Below, piece after piece: positions 43,664 through 44,316 of a stretch of 64,000 bases of DNA. The first letter of the stretch is position 1, and every line of letters begins with the position of its first letter. The position numbers and the translations under genes were made by a program. The notes under the pieces are model-generated. The model was given only the letters and a program-made list of their open reading frames with translations. It had not been told where the DNA came from and did no database searches. The stretch spans positions 5,146,001 through 5,210,000 of the forward strand of contig OZ024763.1 of NCBI GenBank assembly GCA_964016885.1, written 5' to 3'. The DNA comes from Eledone cirrhosa (taxonomy: Eukaryota).

Positions 43664-43846
43664 ATATAAATTTTTATTTTAGAATACTGTATCTATCCAT
43701 CTCTCTCTCTTTCTCTGTTCCTTCCTATTTACACACACATACACACACACATACACACACACATATATATATACACACACATACATATATATATACACAC
43801 ACATACATATATATATACACACACATACATATATATACACACACAG

Positions 43847-43894
<48 letters not shown>

Positions 43895-44148
43895 ATAATA
43901 ATAAATGTGAAGACTAAAATCCAAAGAGGGCTCGATAAGGATAAATATATATCAAATATATAAATAATCGCTGCTTTCACCCTTAACGGGATCTTCAGAA
44001 GATCCCGTTAAGGGTGAAAGCAGCGATTATTTGCTTAAACTTTAATCTGTTATTTTAATAAATATTTGCTCTAGGGTTCTTATATATTTGATATATATTT
44101 ATCCTTATCGAGCCCTCTTTGGATTTTAGTCTTCACATTTATTATTAT

Positions 44149-44194
<46 letters not shown>

Positions 44195-44316
44195 ATATAT
44201 ATGTGTGTGCATGTGTGAATATTATATATATGTGTGTGTATGTGTGTGTAAATAGGAAGGAACAGAGAAAGAGAGAGAGATGGATAAATACAGTATTCTA
44301 AAATAAAAATTTATAT
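43664..44316. mobile_element. Large fold-back (about 650 bp) centred on a hammerhead core
   Basis: Axis at 43997 within gatcttc-a-gaagatc. Minus strand CTGAAGA-TCCCGTTAAGGGT-GAAAGCA. Plus strand continues GAA-AGCA-gcgattatt-TGCT-T-aaacttt...AATAAA. Confidence 0.75.

What the first reader, a model, noticed from the sequence alone, without database searches (positions are those of the whole stretch)
43664..44316. 650-bp inverted duplication centred exactly in CUGAAGA and extending through flanking microsatellites
The axis (43997) falls at the U of the core. The arms include the element, (TA)n, (CA)n and about 75 bp of further unique sequence (43664-43735 versus 44245-44316). The other copy at 50918-51078 lacks this extension. 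This suggests fold-back synthesis copied host flank or a read-through transcript, which would let these elements create genomic palindromes and spread microsatellites.
Basis: partly seen in the sequence, partly recalled or inferred. Interest (0 to 1): 0.7.

Follow-up and report, generated by a model that had tools for sequence, protein, structure and literature searches.

The report
Penelope stump with fold-back flank copy
This 650-base mirror-image stretch is a back-to-back leftover of a very common Penelope-type jumping gene, one half of which was likely re-copied by a DNA fold-back that ran on into neighbouring host DNA; the 'ribozyme core' at its centre is created by the join itself, and such flank copying is rare among the element's copies.

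Summary
The palindrome is real: axis 43997, 35-bp perfect core, 72-bp flank copied with one mismatch and found only twice in the genome. The arms differ: the left lacks 49 bp of element and the microsatellite blocks are 156 and 93 bp. The element is the 5' UTR of an abundant 3.26-kb Penelope-like retrotransposon (709-aa ORF, Hydra-clade motifs) that inserts head-to-head into (TA)n, a published layout. The same junction occurs 669 times. The native motif is CAGAAGA (12,001 copies against 32 with T), so 'CUGAAGA' is made by joining two arms at the self-complementary TTCAGAA; no hammerhead can fold there. Extension into flank is rare: 1 of 86 unselected copies (and that one ambiguous), 3 clear of 66 picked for two long arms, the longest 1.77 kb. 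Best reading: a DNA template switch at the palindrome copied arm plus flank and rejoined at a TA run, probably after insertion (0.5) or during it (0.33). A read-through transcript is unsupported. Reads could not confirm the locus. This scan noted such stumps in other genomes and one flank-copied case in this genome.

The parts
43663..43735 (-). Inverted copy of the 72-73 bp host flank; ends outward in TATATA (likely the duplicate)
   Evidence: 71/72 identity to 44245-44316; 2 matches in the genome; that this side is the copy is inferred
43736..43891 (-). Left microsatellite block, 156 bp: (CA)/(TA) 22-bp units plus (TA)20
43892..43963 (-). Left arm, outer part: element positions +83 to +154 (the 'tail')
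43962..43996 (-). Left arm, inner part: element positions +1 to +35, identical to the right arm including the rare +32 A
43994..44000 (.). Self-complementary 7-mer TTCAGAA at which the arms are joined; gives CTGAAGA on the minus strand
   Evidence: same junction 669 times; native base is A; one of 7 such 7-mers in 357 nt of the 5' UTR
43997..44151 (+). Right arm: complete positions 0 to +154 of the 5' UTR/pLTR of an autonomous Penelope-like element, with a degenerate hammerhead-like motif that here lacks its stem I 5' strand
   Evidence: 96-98% identical to the sequence upstream of the ORF in 6 of 9 ORF loci examined; fold test
44152..44244 (+). Right microsatellite block, 93 bp: (TA)15 target run then (TG)/(TA) repeats
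44245..44317 (+). Host flank, 72-73 bp (likely the original)
   Evidence: originality inferred from the complete right arm and the polarity of the central base
44312..44327 (.). (TA)8 run where the arm homology ends; likely rejoining point by TA microhomology
   Evidence: sequence; role inferred
50918..51078 (+). Second stump of the same family (inverted +3..+68 arm, +84..+157 piece) in (TA)n, without flank extension

Best explanation
The stretch is a head-to-head pair of short 5'-UTR copies of a Penelope-like retrotransposon in a (TA)n run, joined at the self-complementary word TTCAGAA, whose left arm was likely rebuilt later by a DNA-polymerase template switch that copied the right arm, its microsatellites and 72 bp of host flank and likely rejoined the left side at a TA run. 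Step 1 (layout shown, chemistry inferred from PMC11167929): both ends of a cut (TA)n target prime cDNA at two fixed sites (+63..68 and about +155), and the cDNAs are joined at TTCAGAA with T or A in the middle. Step 2 (inferred): a nascent strand that has passed the centre folds back, uses the other arm as template, skips 49 nt at a 2-base microhomology, runs about 190 nt beyond the element, and anneals its (TA) end to the left (TA) stub. The result has no predicted ribozyme activity and no sign of function.
For: Parent element: the right arm lies directly upstream of a 709-aa ORF; 101 of 101 scored candidates match the ORF at 94% identity or more. Junction: 669 exact, 1,027 within 12 nt; the central T reads into the short arm in 19 and into the long arm in 10 of 34 loci picked by junction alone. 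Arm ends: 79 at +60..71, 78 at +150..156 and 15 elsewhere, of 172. Local copying: flank only here. L129 has 1.77-kb arms at 99.5%, runs on into host DNA without a TA run on the right, and returns to a +41..+68 remnant of the short arm on the left. Later timing: in L129, 2 of 3 substitutions lie in the inner 40 bp and 1 in the outer 1.73 kb. The query's +32 A is on both arms, whereas it is on one arm only in 6 of 6 other loci where both arms cover it. Shared rare variants against unshared ones: 55 to 250 in 66 two-long-arm loci, 11 to 216 in 109 asymmetric loci, Fisher p 2e-6.
Against: For the query itself the dating rests on one shared base. Arm-to-arm divergence (1 of 72 in the flank, a few changes in the microsatellites) is about the same as the element's own divergence (1 private change in 156), which fits copying at insertion equally. 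In some two-long-arm loci the arms carry different subfamily markers (L100, L154, L168), so two RNAs can be used, and shared variants may then reflect fold-back at insertion of a variant template. One of the two inner L129 changes is at a CpG. The two-long-arm class includes a few loci misclassified through TA-like sequence at +84..105 (such as L017, L206). No empty site or unduplicated allele was seen (uninformative). Which side is the original is inferred.
Confidence: 0.5

Rival explanations
1. Fold-back overshoot at insertion: the cDNA primed on the right target end self-primes at TTCTGAA, is copied back through itself and through the target into the host flank, and is joined to the left target end at a TA run, all in one integration event.
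For: The central T lies on the strand that would be the right-arm cDNA and reads into the deleted arm, as fold-back predicts; the copy ends at a TA run; ages of arms and element are similar; out-and-back arms return at +35..+42 in 4 of 4 cases looked at (L055, L059, L094, L129); self-priming was proposed for Penelope palindromes (PMC3846280, passages); L1 insertions with inverted duplication of target DNA are described (10.1101/2024.12.14.628481, passages).
Against: The T polarity has a 50% prior. A 1-nt loop cannot form a hairpin, so self-priming needs a slip. L129's inner arm looks older than its outer arm. +40..+46 is itself a self-complementary 7-mer, which can explain the return cluster.
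Confidence: 0.33
2. Read-through transduction: an RNA from another genomic copy, carrying microsatellites and this flank, was primed twice at the same point and inserted into a new (TA)n.
For: TA runs lie at both outer ends; one RNA template would explain the shared +32 A; Penelope elements can carry host DNA (PMC3846280, passages).
Against: No source copy: 2 matches in 3.0 Gb, both here, and none in the other 221 loci. L129 and L130 end asymmetrically, as local copying predicts. The search skips common words and the assembly may be incomplete.
Confidence: 0.07
3. Assembly or read artefact (fold-back chimeric read).
For: Inverted repeats beside microsatellites are hard to assemble (PMC8557442, passage); not checked against reads.
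Against: The arms differ by a 49-bp gap, a flank substitution and a restructured microsatellite; unique sequence continues on both sides in a 30.7-Mb contig; parallel structures exist at other loci.
Confidence: 0.05
4. The flank is a fixed part of a TIR (MITE or foldback DNA) element.
For: Long terminal inverted repeats in a TA target.
Against: The flank occurs in no other copy; the arms are the 5' UTR of a retroelement.
Confidence: 0.01

Closest known systems
Insertion unit of endonuclease-bearing Penelope-like elements: inverted 5'-truncated pLTR, one-sided tail, palindrome at the junction (PMC8557442, PMC3846280; passages read)
   Same: Head-to-head arms, two fixed 3' ends, (TA)n target, parent ORF with RT then GIY-YIG-type end.
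   Different: The tail is about 90 nt rather than 30-40; at this locus both arms carry it and the symmetry runs on about 190-230 bp into microsatellite and unique host DNA, which the passages read do not describe.
Hydra clade of Penelope-like elements (PMC8557442, section 11 read)
   Same: DKT, CxCx5C linker, CxxC and CxH around the conserved E and N, no CxxC inside the GIY-YIG core, (TA)n target.
   Different: RWR for RWK, unit of 3.26 kb rather than under 3 kb, hammerhead core non-canonical (CAGAAGA); no tree was built.
Internal initiation of reverse transcription at two sites by Poseidon PAc (PMC11167929, main text parts 1-2 of 4 read)
   Same: Two fixed ends downstream of the hammerhead motif; cleavage and extension of both target strands would give two arms.
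   Different: Shown in vitro for another clade; here inferred from genomic ends only.
Template switching at inverted repeats: quasi-palindrome correction and ODIRA (PMC11790251, passages; PMC13100816, PMC8604942, PMC7202029, search listing only)
   Same: A short inverted repeat seeds a polymerase switch that extends the palindrome or duplicates neighbouring DNA in inverted form.
   Different: Here the seed is a retroelement insertion, the product is a small duplication (0.07-1.6 kb of flank) and not an origin-dependent triplication.
L1 insertions with inverted duplication of target DNA (bioRxiv 10.1101/2024.12.14.628481, passages)
   Same: Retrotransposition break end self-anneals, primes synthesis and duplicates genomic DNA in inverted form, with 2-bp microhomology.
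   Different: Somatic L1 events in human cells, with the two inverted-duplication examples on the reciprocal end; here the axis lies inside the element.

Membership tests
EN+ Penelope-like element insertion | Arms derive from the pLTR/5' UTR of an RT + C-terminal endonuclease ORF | tested here: met
   Arm sequence directly upstream of the ORF in 6 of 9 loci; 709-aa ORF. Pfam support is weak: RVT_1 E 0.042 for the 415-aa part, none for the whole protein, no PDB hit; RT and GIY-YIG motifs read by eye.
EN+ Penelope-like element insertion | Inverted 5'-truncated copy next to a direct copy | tested here: met
   669 exact and 1,027 near junctions; arm maps.
EN+ Penelope-like element insertion | Tail on one arm only | tested here: met
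   Met for the family: 79 ends at +60..71 and 78 at +150..156 of 172. The query is an exception, with the tail on both arms.
EN+ Penelope-like element insertion | Target-site duplication | not testable with these tools
   Target is (TA)n; no empty site available.
Hydra clade | DKT in place of DKG; CxCx5C linker; CxxC and CxH in the endonuclease; no CCHH | tested here: met
   SDKTGN, CNCRNRADC, CDLC...CKH, a single C between the GIY- and YIG-like words, read in the ORF.
Hydra clade | RWK motif; length under 3 kb | tested here: inconclusive
   RWR; same-strand copies lie 3,259-3,261 bp apart, one such pair around an ORF match.
Hydra clade | Canonical hammerhead in the pLTR | tested here: not met
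   Core CAGAAGA in 12,001 of 12,093; U.U at 10.1/11.1; hammerhead fold -6.4 against MFE -10.2 kcal/mol; no Rfam hit in the window.
Hydra clade | Placement in the RT phylogeny | not tested
   No reference sequences were aligned; filed as Hydra-like.
Type I hammerhead at the axis | CUGANGA ... GAAA with stems I, II, III | tested here: not met
   CUGAAGA is junction-made; the stem I 5' strand is replaced by mirror sequence; the 49-nt gap removes the 3' strands of stems III and I; the RNA folds as a plain hairpin.
Type I hammerhead at the axis | Self-cleavage | not testable with these tools
   Needs an in vitro assay.
TIR/MITE or foldback DNA transposon | Same terminal repeats on many copies | tested here: not met
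   Flank has 2 matches in the genome and none in 221 other loci.
Non-LTR retrozyme | Tandem monomers each with a type I hammerhead | tested here: not met
   Two truncated inverted arms, no tandem units; definition from 10.64898/2026.07.22.740005, part 1 of 5 read.

The most novel reading that the evidence does not exclude
Fold-back overshoot is a built-in side reaction of Penelope integration: the cDNA self-primes, runs through its own target and writes inverted duplications of host DNA up to kilobases long, ending on the partner cDNA. The cluster of returns at +35..+42 would then record RNA cut by a non-canonical CAGAAGA hammerhead, predicted to cleave after +39. With over 12,000 copies, the family would be a standing source of germline host-DNA palindromes.
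Probability: 0.2. Interest if true: 0.6.

Novelty: new variant of a known kind. Interest (0 to 1): 0.3.

Why it matters
The central palindrome is ordinary Penelope debris. The extension into host DNA is a small but real addition: Penelope stumps can seed inverted duplications of their neighbourhood (72 bp here, 1.6 kb of flank at L129), at roughly 1% of short junctions or less. If these form during integration they are snapshots of second-strand synthesis, a step the in vitro study (PMC11167929) leaves open. If they form later they are natural cases of template switching at inverted repeats. It also warns that motif scans will call false CUGAAGA hammerheads at such junctions.

Tried and rejected
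Rfam scan of the window: 0 hits. DNA search with the element: skipped as too common, replaced by patterns. Read support for the query locus: not obtained, so artefact and empty site stay open. Contigs of 4 runs laid on L129:2900-5060: short contigs swamped by repeats, none spans the stretch, no informative joint among the rows shown. Word shares in public runs (best 0.54) say nothing on the palindrome. Searches were faulty scripts (orientation), redone. One search misclassified arms through TA-like sequence, redone. Inverted flank hits not counted as flank copies: L005, L014, L016, L099, L178 (inspected: microsatellite only or a repeat at unequal offsets); L013, L042, L056, L092, L144, L168, L191, L203, L204, L219 (judged by offsets only); L048, L135, L150 (ambiguous: repeat-like flank at 87-94%); L205 (40 bp of another repeat family, counted as the 1 of 86 but ambiguous). 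Rows dropped before counts: loci fetched twice, L021, L071 and L160 (neighbouring copies), ORF loci L113-L122 and L123-L128. A transcription start at the axis was considered; at least 12,001 copies extend 5' of it and no RNA run was examined, so it is untested. Native 5' UTR fold is not more stable than shuffles (z 0.04). Literature searches for flank-copying by Penelope elements listed no paper on it; the library lacks most subscription journals, and supplements of bioRxiv preprints could not be seen.

Full report
Observation. The window is AT-rich animal DNA full of microsatellites and lies in a 3.0-Gb assembly. Aligning the two sides of 43997 shows 35 perfectly mirrored bases, a 49-bp gap in the left arm, 73 more identical element bases, microsatellite blocks of 156 and 93 bp that differ in length and in single bases, and a 72-bp flank with one mismatch. 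Homology ends at 43663 and 44317, inside TATATA on the left and a (TA)8 run on the right. The flank has 2 matches in the genome, both here, and none in the other 221 of 223 loci fetched. The copy at 50918-51078 is a different inverted stump without the flank.

The element. One locus ran from the arm straight into an ORF. A protein search scored 101 of 39,548 candidates, all matching at 94% identity or more, many with a 713-codon open frame. The arm lies directly upstream of the start codon in 6 of 9 such loci. [quoted passage not shown] It carries DKT, CxCx5C, CxxC and CxH and lacks the inner cysteine pair, as listed for the Hydra clade in section 11 of PMC8557442, but it has RWR, a 3.26-kb unit and a non-canonical hammerhead, and no tree was made. 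I call it Hydra-like.

The axis. The junction pattern GGGATCTTCWGAAGATCCC occurs 669 times, and 1,027 junctions fall within 12 nt of it (reversed-pattern controls 0). In native upstream context the base is A in 12,001 copies and C, G or T in 92, of which I counted 32 T, 31 G and 29 C. So the family reads CAGAAGA, and CUGAAGA appears only because two arms meet at TTCAGAA, which is its own reverse complement but for the middle base. The T reads into the short arm in 19 and the long arm in 10 of 34 loci chosen by junction alone, which fits annealing of two cDNA ends over a T:T mismatch, or fold-back from either arm. Other self-complementary words act as axes too, for example +43 in L145. The native sequence can be drawn as a type I hammerhead with a cut after +39 (numbering recalled), but with A at position 4, U.U at the base of stem II and a fold 3.8 kcal/mol above the minimum. 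At the query the stem I 5' strand is gone and the T-reading arm has lost the 3' strands of stems I and III, so no ribozyme is predicted. Why this word is the main hotspot is not explained here.

The ordinary product. In 86 unselected loci (first-listed places on contig C1), 79 of 172 arm ends lie at +60..71 and 78 at +150..156, as a rule followed by (TA)n. This is the inverted 5'-truncated copy with a one-sided tail described in PMC8557442 and PMC3846280 (passages), and the two ends match the two internal start sites shown in vitro in PMC11167929.

The extension into flank. Among the 86, only L205 extends, by 40 bp into a fragment of another repeat family. Three patterns for two long arms gave 34, 19 and 24 places, 66 distinct. 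Clear extensions are the query, L130 (about 200 bp of flank, 88% over the arms) and L129 (arms of 1.77 kb, 99.5%); L048, L135 and L150 are ambiguous. That suggests of the order of ten such loci for the family, an inference. L129 is the clearest: its right side runs on into host DNA, and its left side returns to a +41..+68 remnant of the short arm and then (TA)n. This is local copying, out and back. L055, L059 and L094 show the same out-and-back shape without reaching the flank, returning at +35..+42.

Timing. For later formation: in L129 two of three substitutions lie in the inner 40 bp and one in the outer 1.73 kb; the query's +32 A is on both arms but on one arm only in 6 of 6 other loci where both arms cover it; rare shared variants are enriched in two-long-arm loci (55 shared to 250 unshared against 11 to 216, p 2e-6), with L059 and L169 showing 8 shared and 0 unshared. 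Against: some loci have arms of different subfamilies (L100, L154, L168), so two RNAs can be used and sharing could also come from fold-back at insertion; the query has only 1 private change against a mean of 2.7% in 14 arms of its subfamily (one counted twice), so its arms and its insertion cannot be dated apart; the central T and the TA end fit fold-back of the right cDNA at insertion. I put 0.5 on a later polymerase template switch and 0.33 on overshoot at insertion; together, local fold-back copying has about 0.8. Transduction by a read-through RNA needs a source copy that was not found. An artefact is unlikely given the arm differences but was not excluded by reads; contigs laid on L129 were uninformative.

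Comparison with what is known. Inverted duplication next to L1 insertions (10.1101/2024.12.14.628481, passages) and template switching at inverted repeats (PMC11790251, passages; others from the listing) are known mechanisms. Core variation in natural hammerheads is rare; a U4C variant is mentioned in PMC3088659 (passages), and PMC4209133 (passages) describes other Penelope variants; none of the passages shows A at position 4. Searches listed no paper on Penelope palindromes extending into host flank. Earlier notes of this scan describe such stumps in other genomes and one flank-copied case in this genome; they are unchecked leads.

Verdict. Real; a known kind of insertion with a rare, locally copied flank. 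The hammerhead link is a by-product of the junction. Interest 0.3.

Noticed in passing
G000 family-wide; L116 upstream of the ORF: A very abundant Penelope family keeps a hammerhead-shaped 5' UTR with CAGAAGA in place of CUGANGA (12,001 of 12,093 copies), stems I-III drawable. Activity unknown.
   Followed up: partly
L063-L092: In about 13 of 30 loci picked by the pattern, one arm starts at +37..+40 and joins the other at -6 through the stem I complement, which is the predicted cut site but also a self-complementary 7-mer. The pattern itself selects for this junction.
   Followed up: partly
L129 (G000:C10, about 30.1 Mb): 1.77-kb near-perfect palindrome of host DNA centred on a stump of this family, with a short-arm remnant at its far end.
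   Followed up: yes
L100, L154, L168: The two arms of one palindrome carry different subfamily markers (+77, +139), suggesting two different RNA templates in one insertion or two adjacent insertions.
   Followed up: partly
window 51103-51443: Palindromic stump of a second family in (TA)n, with arms 51179-51432 and a one-sided tail; the same family forms the flank at L205.
   Followed up: partly
window 3900-4018, 15164-15338, 17819-17998, 25966-26276: Stumps of a third family in (TA)n or (CA)n, some palindromic with one-sided tail, some tandem.
   Followed up: no
window 4230-4449, 15354-15552, 25465-25640, 25733-25936: Further short palindromes of unrelated sequence, several next to (TA)n; probably other Penelope stumps.
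   Followed up: no
window 44550-45599: Inverted arms of about 130 bp (44550-44680 and 45386-45515, 89%) around 15.5 copies of a 44-bp repeat, with an inverted unit just outside; resembles a foldback or TIR element with internal satellite.
   Followed up: no
L115, L118 beyond the ORF match: The sequence following the ORF reads like a different retroelement coding region, probably nested insertions.
   Followed up: no
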